16,397 nt of DNA from a virus (Duplodnaviria > Heunggongvirae > Uroviricota > Caudoviricetes). Below the pieces are notes generated by a model that saw only the letters and a list, made by a program, of their open reading frames with translations, did not search any database and was not told the origin of the DNA. The stretch's first letter is position 1, and every line of letters starts with the position of its first letter. The stretch spans positions 1 to 16,397 of the IMG/VR virus record IMGVR_UViG_2778261693_000004; one strand, 5' to 3'. The position numbers and the translations under genes are program-made. Positions 2,315 to 12,354 of the stretch are shown piece by piece.

Positions 2315-3346
2315 CTAATCGCCATCTTCCAGAAGGCGCACCATTGCCCCTGTTTCACTATCCAGGTTACGGATATAGTTCATGACAATATTTACGTTGG
2401 TCCAGCCACCAGCTTGCATGATCTCCGGTATTGAAACTCCGGCACGGGCCATATCTCGCGCGGCTCCGACACGGGCACTGTGTCCAGACCAGGCCAGGTA
2501 CCTCTGGCCAGAGTCATCCTTAGCCCCGTAAATCAATCGGTGAGTTGCTTCAAAAATCCCTTCCAGGGCGCGAGTTGATAGCTGGCTGGTGGGTGATGGC
2601 GAGGCAACACCATTTTTTCTGACCCGGCAAAACAAGTAGTTATTCGGATCATCAGCCACACCAGAGACAGAAATCCATCGTTCGACCAGTTTAGTTACCC
2701 CCAGGCTAAGTGCCTTCTCTACACCCGCGGTACTAACCAGAGTTTTCGTTCTGCCAATATGGATTAGCATTCTCCCACCGTCTGTACGTGAGATATCTTT
2801 AACCCTGATCCTGGCAATTTCGGCTATACGTAACAGGGTGTTATAAGCGATCCCCAGAAATGCCAGATTACGTATATCCTGGCAGCGATCGCTATTTTCC
2901 ATGAGTGAACGAACCTGGTCGAAATCAGTGCGTTCGAACGCCAATGCCTGTTTTGCACGTTCACCGGCATCAACGTTTTCTTTTCGAATCCGCCGCATGA
3001 CCAGTGAAACAGCATTGCTGTCACTTGGTCGTGGCAGCCCGGACCGACGATGAAGCATGTTTAGCTGGCCCAAATGTTGCTGGATAGTTTTTACTGCCAG
3101 ACCGCGCGCCTGAAGATATAGAAGATAATCGCGAACATCTTCAGGTTCTGCGGGAAACCACTTCCGGTTATTCAACTTGCACCATGCCGCCCACGACCGG
3201 CAAACGGACAGAAGCATTTTCCAGGTATGCTCAGAAAACGCCTGGCGATCCCTGAACATGTCCATCAGGTTCTTGCGAACCTCATCACTCGTTGCATCGA
3301 CCGGTAATGCAGGCAAATTTTGGTGTACGGTCAGTAAATTGGACAT
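2315..3346 (-). CDS. cre: Cre site-specific tyrosine recombinase
   Basis: 343-aa translation (MSNLLTVHQNLPALPVDATSDEVRKNLMDMFRDRQAFSEHTWK…MVRLLEDGD) is recognisable along its full length as P1 Cre. loxP lies about 420 bp upstream. Confidence 0.97.
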   Translation of the reverse strand: MSNLLTVHQNLPALPVDATSDEVRKNLMDMFRDRQAFSEHTWKMLLSVCRSWAAWCKLNNRKWFPAEPEDVRDYLLYLQARGLAVKTIQQHLGQLNMLHRRSGLPRPSDSNAVSLVMRRIRKENVDAGERAKQALAFERTDFDQVRSLMENSDRCQDIRNLAFLGIAYNTLLRIAEIARIRVKDISRTDGGRMLIHIGRTKTLVSTAGVEKALSLGVTKLVERWISVSGVADDPNNYLFCRVRKNGVASPSPTSQLSTRALEGIFEATHRLIYGAKDDSGQRYLAWSGHSARVGAARDMARAGVSIPEIMQAGGWTNVNIVMNYIRNLDSETGAMVRLLEDGD

Positions 3347-8549: not shown

Positions 8550-8939
8550 TTAAATCACCGGACAATCATCAAATTCCCCACTTCGGGCATCATTAATGAC
8601 ATGAGTGATCACACCAAACACAGCATTACTCCCCGTGCATCCATCGTCATCCACTGGTAACGCCTCTTTCTTCCCGGTGCTTAAATCCTCCAGGTGCTGG
8701 CGCGGATACTTTCGGTATCTCTTTATGCGATATTCACCCTCCATAGCGCACACAAGCAGCGAACCATCAACTGGAGTAAGCGAAGAATCAACCACCAGCA
8801 AAGCACCCTGCAATATTCCCTCACGGTGATGGCTATCAGCTGCCCGCATGAAGTAGGTTGCTGATGGATGTCTAATTATCTGCTGATCAAGAGAAATTCG
8901 GCTTTCAACATAATCCGCCGCAGGAGAAGGGAAACCCAT
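8550..8939 (-). CDS. humD: HumD, UmuD'-like SOS mutagenesis protein
   Basis: 129 aa starting [30 protein letters not shown]…, which aligns with the processed form of E. coli UmuD ([30 protein letters not shown]…); C-terminal [12 protein letters not shown] matches FGVVIHVVKAMR. Confidence 0.9.
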   Translation of the reverse strand: [129 protein letters not shown]

Positions 8940-8958
8940 AGCGTTTTACCTCAAAAAT

Positions 8959-8974
8959 ACTGTTTATCTATACA
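8959..8974. promoter_or_regulatory. LexA box (CTGT-N8-ACAG) in the humD promoter
   Basis: taCTGTttatctatACAGca, about 20 bp upstream of the humD Shine-Dalgarno and ATG, overlapping a plausible TTGCAC/TAATGT promoter on the minus strand. Confidence 0.65.
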
Positions 8975-9113
8975 GCATACATTAAAGAAGCACCTTTGGT
9001 GCAAACGCGTTATGTACATCAACCACCGCTGATGATTTTTGTGCGCTTTGCTACTATTCATCACCGCGGGATCAGCGTAACCTCGTTGCCAATCAGTTAA
9101 TAAGGAATTAGCT

Positions 9114-9698
9114 ATGCCTAATCGCATTCCTCTCGATCCTGTATTGCCCAAAAATTTTGACTGCACTCCTAACGAGAAACGCTCTAAAGCTCAGCTGGAC
9201 GCCTAGTGGGACCATCCATATGGGGTTACACAACCTGACGGGAAAATTGTAGTTTATTGTCTGAATGGTGGGGCGTGGGACCGTCCATCCATGCTTTGTT
9301 TGGCAGATAACTATGATGAAGCCTGTGAACTTGCCGAAAGACAGCAGGCAAGCTGGGTAAAAACACGGTCTGAACCGACATTCATGTTTTCAAAAGAACC
9401 GCCATTTATACTGGCGAGGATGCCGCAGCGACCGGATCATCAACAAGAAATTGTTGCTGAATTTTCCTCAAGGGATGAGATGAATCTCTTCTCATTAAAG
9501 CAGGAAGAAAGGGATCGCGTCGAAGTGTCTCCAACTCTCGACCACAACCGGATGAACCTGGCCCAGCTCGCCTGGTACAGCAAAGAATTAGAGATGTCTA
9601 TTGCCCGGCTTGAAAACGAAAAAGCCGCTATCCAAGTCCAGCACGAAGTAGTTCTGAACCGGATTAGAGAAATGCAAAACGATAACAGGGGATTTTGA
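9114..9698 (+). CDS. Hypothetical protein; reading frame from a well-positioned ATG is interrupted by an in-frame TAG at 9204-9206 (uninterrupted ORF starts at 9291)
   Basis: AAGGAA Shine-Dalgarno 8 nt before the ATG at 9114. Frame is open for 30 codons, then TAG, then continuously to 9698. The ATGs at 9291 and 9314 have no Shine-Dalgarno. The stop abuts the next gene's ATG. Confidence 0.45.
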
Positions 9699-10055
9699 AT
9701 GGCTAAAATCGAGTACCATCGCGATCGCGGTAATTACCTGGAAATATACGATCATGAATCTCTTAACGATATCAACGATGCGTTATATGAATACTGTGAA
9801 AAAACGAGCATCACAGATGCACCTGATGCATTTGTCGAGCTGCCGGTATATCTCCGCGACATCTATGCAATACGAACACCGCCCGTATCGGTGATTCACA
9901 TTGGCTATGTCCGCCTGTCCATCGAAGAAGATGAAGATCGTTATATCGTGCGCCACTATACATTGGACAGAAAAGAACTTCCTAATGAATGGAACATGAG
10001 TAATTTCTACAACGGTGAATATGGCTTAAAATCCGCTAATAATTTACGGTCATAA
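9699..10055 (+). CDS. Hypothetical 118-aa protein, translationally coupled to the upstream gene
   Basis: ATG at 9699 directly follows TGA at 9696-9698. AGGGGA Shine-Dalgarno. Sequence not recognised. Confidence 0.55.
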   Translation: MAKIEYHRDRGNYLEIYDHESLNDINDALYEYCEKTSITDAPDAFVELPVYLRDIYAIRTPPVSVIHIGYVRLSIEEDEDRYIVRHYTLDRKELPNEWNMSNFYNGEYGLKSANNLRS

Positions 10056-10900
10056 TCTATACAGGCATGTATAACAACAACGAGCCTATTAGCTGTCAAC
10101 AACGTTATTTCCTCAAATAAGAAAAAGCAGAAAACAAATTGTTTAAGGTCACAAATTGTGGCCTTGATGGAGGAGGGAGGCTTATTGGCTATGGCTAAAA
10201 ATCAAATTAGACACTTCATGTTGCTGTAGCTCATCAAGATCCGAGGCCACAAAACCTTTTCCGAAAAACTTCACAAGTAACTCACTAGCCGCATCATTGT
10301 CACCTATTACACGAAAGTCATACGGCAACGTCGCAAGTTGACGATGTAATCCTGCTGAGAAAGTCGAATCTAACAGCGCCCAGAATTCCCACCGCAGGAT
10401 AATACTCGCCTCTTAATACTGTATATATGTTGTTACGATATGTTTTTCTGTCTCTAAAAAAAGATGTTTGAAGGGGATAAAAATATACAATTCCAACAAA
10501 CGTTATTTTTAACAATTTTTTTCTTTGCGTTGACTTTCCCGGACACCTTGTCTGACCTAAGGTGCGCGAAAGCCACTTTTTCCTTCCTGAGTTATCCACA
10601 AAGTTATGCACTTGCAAGAGGGCCATTTTCTACATATTGTGGTGGCTAACAGATGAAATGAATGTAGATTAATTGAAGATAAGGAGAAAATTTGAGATGC
10701 AATCATGACGTTAATAGATAGGGTCTGCATTACAGACCCCACCCGCATCAAGGAATTAGCCGTTCCCTGATGTTTTTCCGAAAACATGTGCCGTAAGCTC
10801 ACGTTAACGACTTTCATTCACCGAATCCAACTATATAGGGGTTGGGTTTCTACGTCAACGTGAGCAAGTGCACCTTTACATTTGACAAGGAACCACCTGA

Positions 10901-11038
10901 ATGAACGCTTTTTTTCAGTTCCTGAGTGCATTTTTAGATGCGCCTATTATTAGCCAGATTCTGGCTATTATCCTCATCATCGTTTTGATTTTGCTTTTAA
11001 GGTCAGTAAAAAATGGAATTATGCACTGGCTTACTTAA
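10901..11038 (+). CDS. Small hydrophobic peptide (45 aa), single predicted transmembrane helix
   Basis: MNAFFQFLSAFLDAPIISQILAIILIIVLILLLRSVKNGIMHWLT with AAGGAA 8 nt upstream. Sits in an otherwise ORF-poor AT-rich region. Confidence 0.3.
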   Translation: MNAFFQFLSAFLDAPIISQILAIILIIVLILLLRSVKNGIMHWLT

Positions 11039-11113
11039 TGTTTCAGTGAAACATTAAAATCTCCTTGATGTGGAAACAATCATTTTCTGTATGTGCTGGT
11101 GGGCACCTGTAGT

Positions 11114-11476
11114 TCAGCTTTCGTTGGCATTTAACTTCGTCTTTGCTTTCTCCACCAGCAACTTCCAGATGCCTATTTCATTAGCAGCCGCCTTGATGGC
11201 GGCATAAAAAGCATCTTGCTGATCGTAACGCTGGATCTGTTTTTTCAGTTTTGCCTCCACCAATTTAATTTCATTACGTGCTTTCTGAAGCCGCATCACC
11301 GCCCGGTTACGTCTGTTCTTGTATAGCGTGTTAATCTCTGACAATTGCTTTAATTTACCAGCCTGACTGCGGATTATCGCCTCCCTGGCTTCTGCCGTGC
11401 GTCTCATCTGATCTCTTAAGAGTTCACCGTTTTCGATAATTCTTTCAAGGTGTTTGATGTGATCTGCAACTCTCAT
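11114..11476 (-). CDS. Hypothetical 120-aa basic, probably coiled-coil protein; last gene of a five- or six-gene minus-strand operon
   Basis: Start overlaps the stop of the upstream 293-aa gene. Lys/Arg/Glu-rich heptad-like sequence. Confidence 0.6.
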   Translation of the reverse strand: MRVADHIKHLERIIENGELLRDQMRRTAEAREAIIRSQAGKLKQLSEINTLYKNRRNRAVMRLQKARNEIKLVEAKLKKQIQRYDQQDAFYAAIKAAANEIGIWKLLVEKAKTKLNANES

Positions 11477-12354
11477 ACTTCACCCTCGCTTGTATCACCA
11501 GCGTCCACCAACGACAATAAAGCCCTGGCCATCTTATGAACCAACAGTGCATCAATAATGCCAAGCGTATGCCCCGGCTTAATGTTTAATGCTGCCTCAA
11601 GATGACACCTTTCCAGACCGCTTTTCTCGGCTTGTTTATGATGATATGGCGTAATAACGTCGCCCAAAACACGGCTAATTCTTTCTCGTAATTGCTGGGT
11701 GCCAGCACACTTGATCGCTGTATCGTGGAGACGGTTAACCAGTTCGCGATAAACATGCGGCTTAATGCGGATACGTTCACCGGTGACGCCCTTTCCTGGC
11801 GTAGGCACCGAACTATCCGGAATATCCGGATAGTTGCCAGCCAGTCTACGCAAAACAGCCTTAATTGCATCAATACGGTCATCATCAACTTTTTCTACAA
11901 TATTGGAATTTAAATACTTCGAAGCCTTGCTATGCCAATCGCTGGTTTTAGGGTCTTGTCCATCCATCAAACGCCAAGCTTCAGCGATTAACTCATAGCC
12001 AGTAACAGTGGCTTCCTGCGCATCACCAATCAGTTGTGTGATCTCTCTTTCAAGCATGCTTAGAGCGTTAGGCATTGGTTTTTCTTCCGGTACTACTGGA
12101 ACGGGGGGAGCGGCGTAGACCTCAATAATTCCATTATCAATAGGCCATTCTCCATCCTTGAGGTAGTCACTTGTGCCGTCAACTTGCTGTTCTGCAATGT
12201 GGAATGCACCTATTGGTTTTGCTTCCAGTGATGCCAGAGCAATTCGTGCCAGTTCTTCCGCTTCTTCTGCTGGCAGTACAACGTTGCTACCAGGTCCGTA
12301 TGTTTCGCGCCACTGCTTGATTGTCAGTAGTCGCTCTTTGGTAATAGTGGTCAT
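11473..12354 (-). CDS. Hypothetical 293-aa protein
   Basis: Long ORF overlapping both neighbours by 4 nt (operon coupling). Sequence not recognised. Confidence 0.65.
   Translation of the reverse strand: MTTITKERLLTIKQWRETYGPGSNVVLPAEEAEELARIALASLEAKPIGAFHIAEQQVDGTSDYLKDGEWPIDNGIIEVYAAPPVPVVPEEKPMPNALSMLEREITQLIGDAQEATVTGYELIAEAWRLMDGQDPKTSDWHSKASKYLNSNIVEKVDDDRIDAIKAVLRRLAGNYPDIPDSSVPTPGKGVTGERIRIKPHVYRELVNRLHDTAIKCAGTQQLRERISRVLGDVITPYHHKQAEKSGLERCHLEAALNIKPGHTLGIIDALLVHKMARALLSLVDAGDTSEGEV

What the first reader, a model, noticed from the sequence alone, without database searches (positions are those of the whole stretch)
10056..11113. AT-rich, ORF-poor kilobase with palindromes, a strong orphan Shine-Dalgarno and a degenerate LexA-type site
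This stretch lacks convincing long ORFs but contains a GGGTCTG-catta-CAGACCC palindrome (10721-10739), an ATGTTTT-N4-AAAACAT palindrome (10770-10787), a GGAGGAGGGAGG run (10170-10181) ahead of a 12-codon ORF, and TACTGTATATATGTTGTTAC (10417-10436), which has a perfect LexA left half but a mutated right half. It looks like a decayed or regulatory region, possibly where the LexA-regulated lxr/hot genes of P1 would lie.
Basis: partly seen in the sequence, partly recalled or inferred. Interest (0 to 1): 0.45.

Follow-up and report, generated by a model that had tools for sequence, protein, structure and literature searches.

The report
Gene fossils plus hidden small-peptide cassette
This "empty" kilobase of a P1/P7-type phage-plasmid is half wreckage of older genes (including a broken LexA operator) and half a conserved, mostly unannotated unit: a copy of the host's ribonucleotide-reductase promoter with its DnaA sites, aimed at a 45-residue membrane peptide gene that is probably controlled by an antisense RNA.

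Summary
The window is a P7-type member of the P1 phage-plasmid family. The region has two parts.

Left part, 10056-10501, is decay. It holds the last 66 codons of a primase/Toprim-like gene that is intact in phage PhiR41_1. It also holds an orphaned humD-type control region. The "degenerate LexA site" is a real operator fossil: phage Cyrano has a perfect LexA box there, and an 11-bp deletion removed the right half here. The "orphan SD + 12-codon ORF" is the antisense of the dead gene's end.

Right part, 10502-11104, is conserved and probably functional. It starts with a ~135-bp copy of the E. coli nrdAB promoter. The DnaA boxes and -35 are invariant in all lineages, and the NrdR operator is absent. 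The promoter points at a leader and an intact 45-aa hydrophobic ORF (10901-11038). An invariant near-consensus promoter on the opposite strand would make a strongly folding antisense RNA ending at the 10721-39 hairpin, which shows a compensatory change.

The reference "upfM/N/O" ORFs are broken or inconsistent in relatives. My best reading is a type I toxin-antitoxin-like cassette wired to host DnaA status. No transcription or toxicity data exist.

The parts
10129..10184 (-). 3' flank of the dead primase-like gene.
   Evidence: Homologous to the sequence downstream of the intact gene in PhiR41_1. The hairpin is conserved there and the G-run is degenerate (GGAGAGGGGATG).
10185..10382 (-). Pseudogene: the C-terminal 66 codons (aa 109-174) of a 174-aa primase/Toprim-like gene. 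The frame stays open up to 10412 but has no ATG/GTG/TTG start.
   Evidence: tblastn gives 88% identity, E = 3.6e-34. The intact homologue matches phrog_849 'DNA primase' at 9.5e-54. P7 carries IS903 inside it at 10310-10318, with target duplication CACGAAAGT.
10394..10501 (-). Fossil of a humD/umuD-type control region. It contains the 5'UTR with SD (10399-10416), the LexA left half-site within 10417-10436, and promoter-region remains. The start codon is lost and 11 bp of the operator are deleted. This window has a further private 17-bp deletion near 10471.
   Evidence: Alignment to Cyrano, where the same sequence directly precedes the umuD-like ATG and holds the perfect box TACTGTATACACATACAGTA. 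The 17-bp deletion is seen against P7, MH422554 and SJ46.
10502..10641 (+). Copy of the host nrdAB promoter. DnaA boxes are TTATCCACA (10592-10600) and TTATGCACT (10604-10612). The -35 is TTGCAA (10612-10617) and the -10 is TATTGT (10635-10640). The predicted TSS is near 10647.
   Evidence: 95% identity to the K-12 nrdA upstream region over 130 bp. 10570-10630 is 98-100% identical in all 5,426 E. coli chromosomes. The core is 27-28/28 conserved in P1 and lineage 3, while the upstream flank is 53-56/90. The K-12 sequence identity is confirmed by oligonucleotides in PMC12176259.
10647..10900 (+). Predicted 5' leader of the peptide mRNA. It has an invariant SD AAGGAG (10681-10686), a 9-codon TTG ORF (10692-10721) and a 21-codon ORF (10705-10770).
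   Evidence: 10678-10864 is 92-100% identical between lineages whose flanks are about 60-75% identical. Both mini-ORFs stay open. No transcript data exist.
10830..10858 (-). Near-consensus sigma-70 promoter TTGACG-17-TATAGT, annotated in P1 as the predicted 'PupfN'. The predicted TSS is near 10822.
   Evidence: 10/12 match to consensus. Both hexamers are invariant in all 102 copies examined.
10712..10823 (-). Predicted cis-antisense RNA of about 110 nt with three hairpins, at 10783-10805, 10746-10772 and 10716-44.
   Evidence: MFE is -44.2 kcal/mol (z = -4.4) on the minus strand against -29.6 (z = -2.7) on the plus strand. One compensatory pair changes U-A to C-G, and nine G.U pairs are valid only on the minus strand. 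Only the two fully paired hairpin variants exist among the 108 copies scanned; one further plasmid, pUTME-7-2, has a single change at the terminal pair. Substitution rate is 7/26 in unpaired against 7/70 in paired columns, P = 0.051.
10901..11038 (+). 45-aa hydrophobic single-helix peptide gene, MNAFFQFLSAFLDAPIISQILAIILIIVLILLLRSVKNGIMHWLT, with SD AAGGA at 10887-10891.
   Evidence: The ORF is intact, with the same start, stop and length, in all 108 copies and 3 lineages despite 33/138 nt differences. Only 12% of random substitution sets keep it open, and 0.5% keep it open and as hydrophobic. SD is AAGGA in P7/P1 types and GAGGA in lineage 3. PGAP calls it WP_000123562.1 'hypothetical protein' in some plasmids.
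11037..11055 (.). Palindrome AATGTTTCA-G-TGAAACATT overlapping the peptide stop codon. Its role is unknown.
   Evidence: Found. It is only partly maintained in lineage 3, and the minimum-energy fold there differs.

Best explanation
The kilobase is a recombination scar joined to a small autonomous cassette.

Shown by sequence comparison:
- 10129-10501 is non-functional debris left by mosaic recombination in a known variable hotspot of P1-like phage-plasmids. It comprises the 3' third of a primase/Toprim-like gene and an orphaned humD-type operator/promoter. The LexA box of that operator lost its right half through an 11-bp deletion.
- 10502-10641 is a copy of the host nrdAB promoter. It keeps both DnaA boxes, the -35 and a -10 at the native spacing. 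It ends before the NrdR operator.

Inferred:
- This promoter fires rightward from about 10647. It makes an mRNA with a ~250-nt structured leader and the 45-aa membrane-peptide ORF (10901-11038).
- Expression would follow host DnaA-ATP and replication status, as nrdAB does, but without dNTP-sensing NrdR repression.
- A strong constitutive promoter on the other strand (10858-10830) makes a ~110-nt three-hairpin RNA that is perfectly complementary to the leader (about 10712-10823).
- That RNA would hold the peptide off by blocking leader translation or standby ribosome loading, or by triggering duplex cleavage.
- Together this gives the architecture of a type I toxin-antitoxin or antisense-controlled small membrane protein module. 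It sits in an island of replication/SOS-related genes (humD, lxr, and hot in P1).

The reference minus-strand ORFs upfM, upfN and upfO (upf91.x in P7) are most likely annotation artefacts.
For: Identity and mosaic structure.

Primase-like remnant.

Operator fossil. Cyrano's UmuD-like protein is 94% identical to the window's real HumD, so the fossil is a second, orphaned humD-type control region.

nrdAB promoter copy:
- The match is present in 5,426 of 5,426 E. coli chromosomes, under 'ypaB' directly upstream of nrdA and in the same orientation.
- Per-segment identity and Fisher P = 5e-6 (lineage 3) and 3e-4 (P1) for selective conservation of the DnaA-box/-35 core.
- The core is invariant in 99 of the 102 copies scanned; the pattern was not found in the other 3.
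- The NrdR operator lies downstream of the -10 in K-12 and is not included in the phage copy (PMC12176259).
- DnaA-ATP regulation of nrdAB is described in PMC11853086.

Peptide ORF.

Antisense promoter and RNA.

Annotated minus-strand ORFs:
- upfM and upfN are broken by stops and frameshifts in lineage 3, and a 1-bp indel separates the P1 and P7 frames.
- The upfO/ypaB-type ORF varies between 14 and 102 aa. Its conserved N-terminus is just the antisense reading of the DnaA boxes.

Cassette autonomy:
- It is retained as a unit next to different neighbours: pmgV, hsdM or hypothetical genes.
- It recombines inside the invariant block (pUTME-7-2).
- The region is dispensable for lytic growth in P1 (PMC10695390), as expected for an accessory module.
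Against: - No transcript, TSS, translation or toxicity data were found for this segment.
- Only three sequence lineages exist, so covariation rests on one compensatory pair. The loop-versus-stem substitution bias is borderline (P = 0.051).
- pN/pS = 0.50 in the ORF frame is no better than in two other frames.
- The peptide has no detectable homology to any known toxin or protein family, and no Rfam family matches.
- The hairpin proposed as the antisense terminator has only a weak, interrupted U-tract. The simple terminator scan did not report it.
- The plus-strand promoter hexamers are weak (8/12), like native nrdAB, and lie about 250 nt from the ORF.
- In P1 and lineage 3 the minus-strand promoter also points toward hot, so its transcript may be a hot mRNA leader and not an antitoxin.
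- The stop-codon palindrome and the 10770-87 palindrome are not well conserved.
Confidence: 0.55

Rival explanations
1. The right half is mainly a regulatory region for the minus strand. The conserved TTGACG-17-TATAGT promoter would produce a long structured leader that reads through the DnaA boxes into hot (in P1 and lineage 3). DnaA bound at the boxes would act as a roadblock or attenuator for the theta-subunit homologue. In the P7-type window this is a leftover, because hot has been replaced.
For: hot lies downstream on the minus strand in P1, pRHB27-C04_2 and SWHEFF_67. P1's annotation places sigma-70 'PupfN' and the late promoter LPhot on this strand. The minus-strand RNA is the better-folding strand. 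The DnaA boxes are invariant.
Against: It does not explain the intact, SD-preceded 45-aa plus-strand ORF. It also does not explain why the boxes sit in exactly the native nrdAB geometry next to a plus-strand -35/-10. The cassette is fully retained in P7-type and pUTME-7-2 plasmids that lack hot. This reading is compatible with the best explanation as an additional role.
Confidence: 0.2
2. The whole kilobase is non-functional decayed DNA. Under this reading its conservation only reflects the recent common ancestry of P1-like plasmids, and the 45-codon ORF and hairpins are chance features of AT-rich sequence.
For: The region lies in 'highly variable region 8' of P1-like phage-plasmids, which is low in GC (PMC9603915). 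It is dispensable for lytic growth. P7 tolerates an IS903 here. The left half is demonstrably debris. pN/pS is not discriminating.
Against: Conservation is strongly non-uniform. The DnaA/-35 core is 28/28 identical against 53/90 for the adjacent flank (P = 5e-6), and 10690-10869 is 89% identical (160 of 181 aligned positions) against flanks with multiple indels. ORF survival with retained hydrophobicity has probability about 0.005. There is a compensatory hairpin change. Palindromes exceed chance (P = 0.004).
Confidence: 0.12
3. The reference annotation is right. The region would then encode several small minus-strand proteins (UpfM/Upf91.3, UpfN/Upf91.4, UpfO, Upf91.6, Upf91.7) co-transcribed with pmgV.
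For: These ORFs are annotated in P1 and P7. upfM matches a PHROG family, phrog_31823, which is built from such annotations.
Against: In lineage 3, upfM and upfN carry in-frame stops and frameshifts. P1 and P7-type differ by a 1-bp indel inside upfN. The upfO-type ORF has six different lengths and C-termini. Upf91.7 in P7 results from the IS903 and 17-bp indel context. None of them has a family match beyond self-annotations.
Confidence: 0.05

Closest known systems
E. coli nrdAB (class Ia ribonucleotide reductase) promoter
   Same: About 130 bp are 95% identical. The two DnaA boxes, the -35 TTGCAA, the 17-bp spacer and the -10 position are all retained. The orientation relative to downstream cargo is the same.
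   Different: Homology stops at the -10. NrdR boxes 1 and 2, the nrdA leader and the nrdA gene are absent. The cargo is a phage leader and a 45-aa ORF. In Cyrano the same cassette faces a short terminator-ended transcript.
Type I toxin-antitoxin systems with 5'UTR-directed antisense RNAs (ldr/rdl, hok/sok, tisB/istR-1, dinQ/agrB, zorO/orzO)
   Same: It has a small hydrophobic single-helix peptide and a long structured leader with an upstream SD and mini-ORFs. A weak, regulated toxin-side promoter opposes a strong promoter for a ~100-nt structured RNA complementary to the leader. It is carried on a plasmid/prophage and sits next to SOS genes, as tisB and dinQ are SOS-linked.
   Different: There is no sequence or profile similarity to any known toxin or antitoxin family. 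The toxin-side control would be DnaA instead of LexA. Toxicity and RNA-RNA regulation are untested.
P1 hot-upfO-upfN-upfM segment (Lobocka et al. annotation, AF234172) and P7 upf91.x segment (AF503408)
   Same: It is orthologous DNA: 96-100% identical from 10562 rightward to P1, and 98.9% identical over the 2-kb query 9600-11600 to P7 apart from P7's IS903. The P1 record already notes the 56-bp E. coli-like segment with two DnaA boxes.
   Different: The window lacks hot and LPhot. In their place it carries upf93.6 plus the gene fossils. My reading places the real gene on the opposite strand from the annotated Upf ORFs.
SOS (LexA) operator of humD/umuD
   Same: The fossil at 10399-10436 is collinear with Cyrano's umuD-like 5'UTR and LexA box, and its left half-site TACTGTAT is identical.
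   Different: The right half-site and the gene's start codon are deleted. The functional humD/lxr operator of this genome is at 8958-8977.

Membership tests
LexA operator (SOS box) | Palindromic CTGT-N8-ACAG (CTG-N10-CAG) core | tested here: not met
   10417-10436 has only the left half and 7 mismatches to the 20-bp consensus. Alignment to Cyrano shows an 11-bp deletion of the right half.
LexA operator (SOS box) | Position over the promoter or 5' end of an SOS gene | tested here: not met
   The downstream start codon is lost, and the frame runs into a truncated primase-like remnant.
nrdAB promoter | Two DnaA boxes abutting a TTGCAA -35, with a -10 seventeen bp downstream | tested here: met
   10592-10640 aligns to K-12 nrdA upstream with 28/28 identity in the core. 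The K-12 promoter sequence was cross-checked with PMC12176259 oligonucleotides.
nrdAB promoter | NrdR operator (boxes 1 and 2) downstream of the -10 | tested here: not met
   Homology to K-12 ends within the -10 region. No CCCCCTATATATAGTGTT-like box follows.
nrdAB promoter | DnaA-ATP-dependent regulation of transcription | not testable with these tools
   This is inferred only from box conservation and from the literature on nrdAB.
Type I toxin-antitoxin system | Toxin of 60 aa or fewer, hydrophobic, with a predicted transmembrane helix | tested here: met
   The peptide is 45 aa with GRAVY 1.56, and 19-residue hydrophobicity windows reach 2.95. Substitutions are conservative in lineage 3.
Type I toxin-antitoxin system | Separately transcribed small RNA complementary to the toxin mRNA | tested here: inconclusive
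   An invariant 10/12 promoter lies on the opposite strand inside the leader. The predicted RNA folds with z = -4.4 and has one compensatory pair. No transcript evidence is available.
Type I toxin-antitoxin system | Peptide toxic when over-produced, and RNA neutralises it post-transcriptionally | not testable with these tools
   This needs expression experiments.
Type I toxin-antitoxin system | Homology to a described family (Hok, Ldr, Fst, TisB, Ibs, ShoB, DinQ, ZorO; Sok, Rdl, IstR, Sib, OhsC, AgrB, OrzO) | tested here: not met
   There are no Pfam, NCBIfam, PADLOC or PDB hits. Against Ldr, BLASTP finds nothing and hhalign gives 2.4% probability. There are no Rfam hits, even at E up to 10.
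DnaG-type primase / Toprim protein | Complete ORF containing the Toprim region | tested here: not met
   Only aa 109-174 of 174 survive and there is no start codon. The intact relative matches phrog_849 but no Pfam model.
P1 hot (DNA polymerase III theta homologue) | Presence of a Hot/HolE-like ORF | tested here: not met
   tblastn of P1 Hot against the whole window gives a best E of 0.22. P1 homology is interrupted between 9648 and 10562.

The most novel reading that the evidence does not exclude
P1-family phage-plasmids may carry a previously unrecognised type I toxin-antitoxin family. Its membrane-peptide gene would be driven by a pirated host nrdAB promoter that kept its DnaA boxes but shed the NrdR operator. 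The element would then read the host's DnaA-ATP and replication-stress state directly, independently of LexA, to decide when to release a membrane-active peptide. The three 'Upf' genes of the P1 reference annotation would be wrong-strand artefacts.
Probability: 0.3. Interest if true: 0.65.

Novelty: new member of a known kind. Interest (0 to 1): 0.45.

Why it matters
P1 is a classic model phage and a widespread vehicle of resistance genes; this cassette is in about 4% of complete E. coli genomes. If the reading is right, four things follow:

1. A segment of the reference annotation (upfM, upfN, upfO and upf91.x) should be replaced by one plus-strand small-protein gene and an antisense RNA.
2. 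It would be a clear case of a mobile element capturing a host cell-cycle promoter to couple its own gene to DnaA status.
3. It would add a DnaA-controlled member to the SOS-controlled small membrane toxins such as TisB and DinQ.
4. The operator fossil and gene stump give a datable record of how the lxr/hot hotspot was assembled by recombination between different phage-plasmid lineages.

If the cassette proves inert, the result is still a clean explanation of an odd-looking region as recombination debris.

Tried and rejected
- **Rfam.** Gathering thresholds on the whole window and E up to 10 on the region found nothing meaningful. There are no tRNAs.
- **Peptide homology.** The word-indexed search, the exhaustive phmmer search, Pfam, PHROGs, NCBIfam, PADLOC and PDB found only P1-family copies, some with frameshifted C-termini.
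- **Ldr/Fst resemblance.** The 'APIxxxI' motif that I recalled was tested against real K-12 Ldr sequences and rejected.
- **More distant copies.** The genome-contig scans found nothing. The viral-contig scans returned the same 53 P1-type contigs in three lineages.
- **pN/pS.** It is not discriminating between frames.
- **Palindrome 10770-10787.** It is mismatched in P1 and altered in lineage 3. In the predicted RNA these bases pair differently. It is probably not a unit in itself.
- **Stop-codon palindrome 11037-55.** It is only partly maintained in lineage 3 and its role is unresolved.
- **GGAGG run plus 12-codon ORF.** It is the antisense of the dead gene's C-terminus and 3' flank.
- **pUTME-7-2 as the ancestral layout.** It is a deletion derivative lacking window 9135-9757.
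- **P1 genome paper.** It was not in the library under the PMC id I recalled, so I relied on the GenBank feature notes.
- **Literature searches.** Searches for transcript maps, sRNAs or type I modules in this P1 segment found nothing.
Full report
**Identity and context.** The 2-kb stretch around the finding is 98.9% identical to phage P7, Salmonella phage SJ46 and several 'Punavirus P1' records. Only its right half matches P1 itself.

From P7 and P1 annotations mapped by BLAST, the local gene order in the window is:
- humD (8550-8939, minus strand)
- the humD/lxr LexA box (8958-8977)
- lxr (9114-9698, plus strand)
- upf93.6 (9699-10055, plus strand)
- the finding (10056-11113)
- the pmgV homologue (11114-11476, minus strand)

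In P1, the hot gene and its late promoter occupy the slot taken here by upf93.6 and the left half of the finding. tblastn finds no hot in the window. P7 differs from the window by an IS903 inserted at 10310-10318, with a 9-bp duplication CACGAAAGT. The window is therefore the uninterrupted form. A published comparison places pmgT-humD among eight hypervariable, low-GC regions of P1-like phage-plasmids (PMC9603915). P1 genes in this stretch are non-essential for lytic growth (PMC10695390).

**Observation check.** All four motifs are present, with the G-run one base off. GC is 39.4% against 46.3% for the window. Perfect short inverted repeats occur at 4 loci against 0.59 expected (P = 0.004).

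**Left half: fossils.**
- The minus-strand frame at 10182-10412 is open but has no start codon.
- It is 88% identical (E = 4e-34) to residues 109-174 of a 174-aa protein that is intact in phage PhiR41_1.
- That protein matches phage 'DNA primase' families (phrog_849, 9.5e-54). One of them, phrog_17952, covers only the C-terminal 68 aa, the same piece that survives in the window.
- DNA homology to PhiR41_1 covers 10129-10393, including the gene's 3' flank.
The 12-codon ORF is simply the antisense of the C-terminal coding sequence.
- From 10399 the window becomes collinear with phage Cyrano, exactly where Cyrano's umuD-like gene starts.
- Cyrano reads CAT-AATACTCGCCTCTTAA-TACTGTATACACATACAGTA, which is start codon, SD-containing 5'UTR and a perfect LexA box.
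- The window keeps the 5'UTR and TACTGTA. It lacks 11 bp (the right half-site) and the start codon.
- This isolate has lost a further 17 bp near 10471 that all other P7-type sequences and Cyrano retain.
- Cyrano's UmuD-like protein is 94% identical to the window's real HumD. The fossil is therefore a second, orphaned humD-type control region.

So the 'degenerate LexA site' is a genuine but dead operator.

**The host promoter copy.**
- Window 10570-10630 matches every one of 5,426 complete E. coli chromosomes at 98-100%, under the annotation 'ypaB'.
- In K-12 this lies directly upstream of nrdA, in the same orientation.
- The alignment runs from about 10502 to the -10 region at 95% identity over 130 bp.
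- Oligonucleotides published for the nrdAB promoter (PMC12176259) confirm the K-12 sequence. They also show that the functional NrdR operator (boxes 1 and 2) lies downstream of the -10, beyond the end of the phage homology.
- Coordinates are: DnaA boxes 10592-10600 and 10604-10612, -35 TTGCAA 10612-10617, -10 TATTGT 10635-10640.
- P1, a third plasmid lineage (pRHB27-C04_2, SWHEFF_67, pFG92-1) and Cyrano all carry the same ~120-bp region.
- Their upstream 90 bp has drifted to 53-56/90 identity with K-12 in P1 and lineage 3 (76/90 in Cyrano). The 28-bp DnaA-box/-35 core is 26-28/28. Fisher P is 5e-6 for lineage 3 and 3e-4 for P1.
- The core is invariant in 99 of the 102 copies examined; the pattern was not found in the other 3.
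- The P1 GenBank record already notes a 56-bp E. coli-like segment with two DnaA boxes, so this part is not new.
- Not in that note (as far as its truncated text shows) are the homology across the whole promoter, the plus-strand orientation, the loss of NrdR control and the selective conservation.
- The near-identity of the P7-type copy to E. coli suggests recent gene conversion against the host chromosome. This is an inference.

**The conserved cassette.** Between lineages whose flanks are about 60-75% identical and full of indels, 10690-10869 is 89% identical (160 of 181 aligned positions; alignment). Three elements stand out.

1. *The 45-aa ORF at 10901-11038 on the plus strand.*
 - It keeps its start, stop and length in all 108 copies despite 33 of 138 nucleotide differences.
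 - Its replacements are conservative and hydrophobic, and an SD is kept (AAGGA or GAGGA).
 - Random placement of the same substitutions keeps the ORF open in 12% of trials, and open and as hydrophobic in 0.5%.
 - pN/pS is 0.50 and not discriminating.
 - PGAP annotates it as a hypothetical protein in some plasmids. The P1 and P7 reference records do not.
2. *A minus-strand promoter, TTGACG-17-TATAGT (10858-10830).* It matches consensus at 10 of 12 positions, and both hexamers are invariant in all copies.
3. *The RNA that promoter would make.*
 - It folds into three hairpins with MFE -44.2 kcal/mol (z = -4.4). The same interval on the plus strand gives -29.6 (z = -2.7).
 - Nine G.U pairs would be A.C mismatches on the other strand.
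It occurs only as GGGTCTG/CAGACCC or GGGCCTG/CAGGCCC in the 108 copies scanned; one recombinant plasmid, pUTME-7-2, carries a single change at the terminal pair.
 - Substitutions are 2.7 times denser in unpaired columns (P = 0.051).

The annotated minus-strand ORFs fail the comparative test. upfM and upfN acquire stops and frameshifts in lineage 3. The upfO/ypaB-type ORF has six different lengths, and its conserved N-terminus is the antisense reading of the DnaA boxes.

The cassette is found next to different right-hand neighbours. It occurs in 216 of 5,426 E. coli genomes, with 222 of 223 copies on plasmids. It is found only in P1-family elements.

**Mechanism proposed (inferred).** The nrdAB-type promoter would start a plus-strand mRNA near 10647. 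Its long leader carries an invariant AAGGAG (10681-86) and two small ORFs. The opposing promoter would make a ~110-nt RNA complementary to 10712-10823, which limits peptide synthesis. The peptide would be released when promoter activity rises with changes in DnaA-ATP or replication stress, as described for nrdAB (PMC11853086), but without NrdR repression. This is the layout of a type I toxin-antitoxin or antisense-controlled small membrane protein. Membership of any described family was tested and not met. Toxicity is untested.

The main rival is that the minus-strand transcript is a leader for hot in P1-type genomes, with DnaA acting as a roadblock. That could coexist with the proposal above.

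**Verdict.** Its interpretation is partly right: the left half is decayed, the LexA site is a fossil, and the region occupies the hot slot. It missed the conserved cassette and the host promoter. Novelty is moderate. The DnaA boxes were already annotated and the ORF is called by PGAP. The cassette reading, the re-assignment of strand, the promoter-capture details and the operator fossil appear to be unreported in the literature I could search.

Noticed in passing
window 9204-9206 (within lxr, 9114-9698 +): lxr carries a premature amber codon (TGG to TAG at codon 31; G to A at 9205). It is absent from P7, MH422554 and P1, so this isolate's lxr is probably inactive.
   Followed up: yes
L005 (phage Cyrano) 2626-2766: The same nrdA-like DnaA-box promoter is followed, about 55-85 nt after the predicted start, by a textbook bidirectional intrinsic terminator (AAAAAGCCCAG...CTGGGCTTTTT). 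This suggests a short DnaA-regulated transcript. The fold has z = -3.5.
   Followed up: partly
L005 (phage Cyrano) 2729-2810, minus strand: A sub-threshold Rfam hit to AgrB, the antitoxin sRNA of the SOS-regulated dinQ type I system (27.6 bits against a gathering score of 40, E = 0.023). It lies next to a umuD-like gene, and a 31-aa hydrophobic ORF lies at 3051-3146.
   Followed up: no
window ~10471: A private 17-bp deletion (TAATAGAATGCTAACCA) relative to P7, SJ46, MH422554 and Cyrano. It is shared only with one IMG/VR contig (L032) among those examined.
   Followed up: partly
L117 (pUTME-7-2, NZ_CP169031.1): A recombinant cassette: P7-type leader and antisense region joined to a lineage-3 peptide allele, with the crossover inside the invariant antisense-promoter block. 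It also has a deletion equivalent to window 9135-9757 that removes lxr and the 5' part of upf93.6.
   Followed up: yes
proteins P0001-P0004 (database copies of the 45-aa peptide): Several database variants have frameshifted or truncated C-termini after residue ~31-37. One possible cause is slippage in the A6 run at about 11008-11013. These could be inactivated alleles or assembly errors.
   Followed up: no
window 9699-10055 (+): upf93.6 (118 aa) is a well-conserved phage protein of unknown function (phrog_5797, 3.8e-77). It has a weak DUF7588 hit. In pRHB27-C04_2 a homologue sits between lxr and hot.
   Followed up: no
window 10951-10967: A perfect 8-bp-arm palindrome, TAGCCAGA-T-TCTGGCTA, lies inside the 45-aa ORF (codons 17-22). 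It is only partly kept in lineage 3.
   Followed up: no
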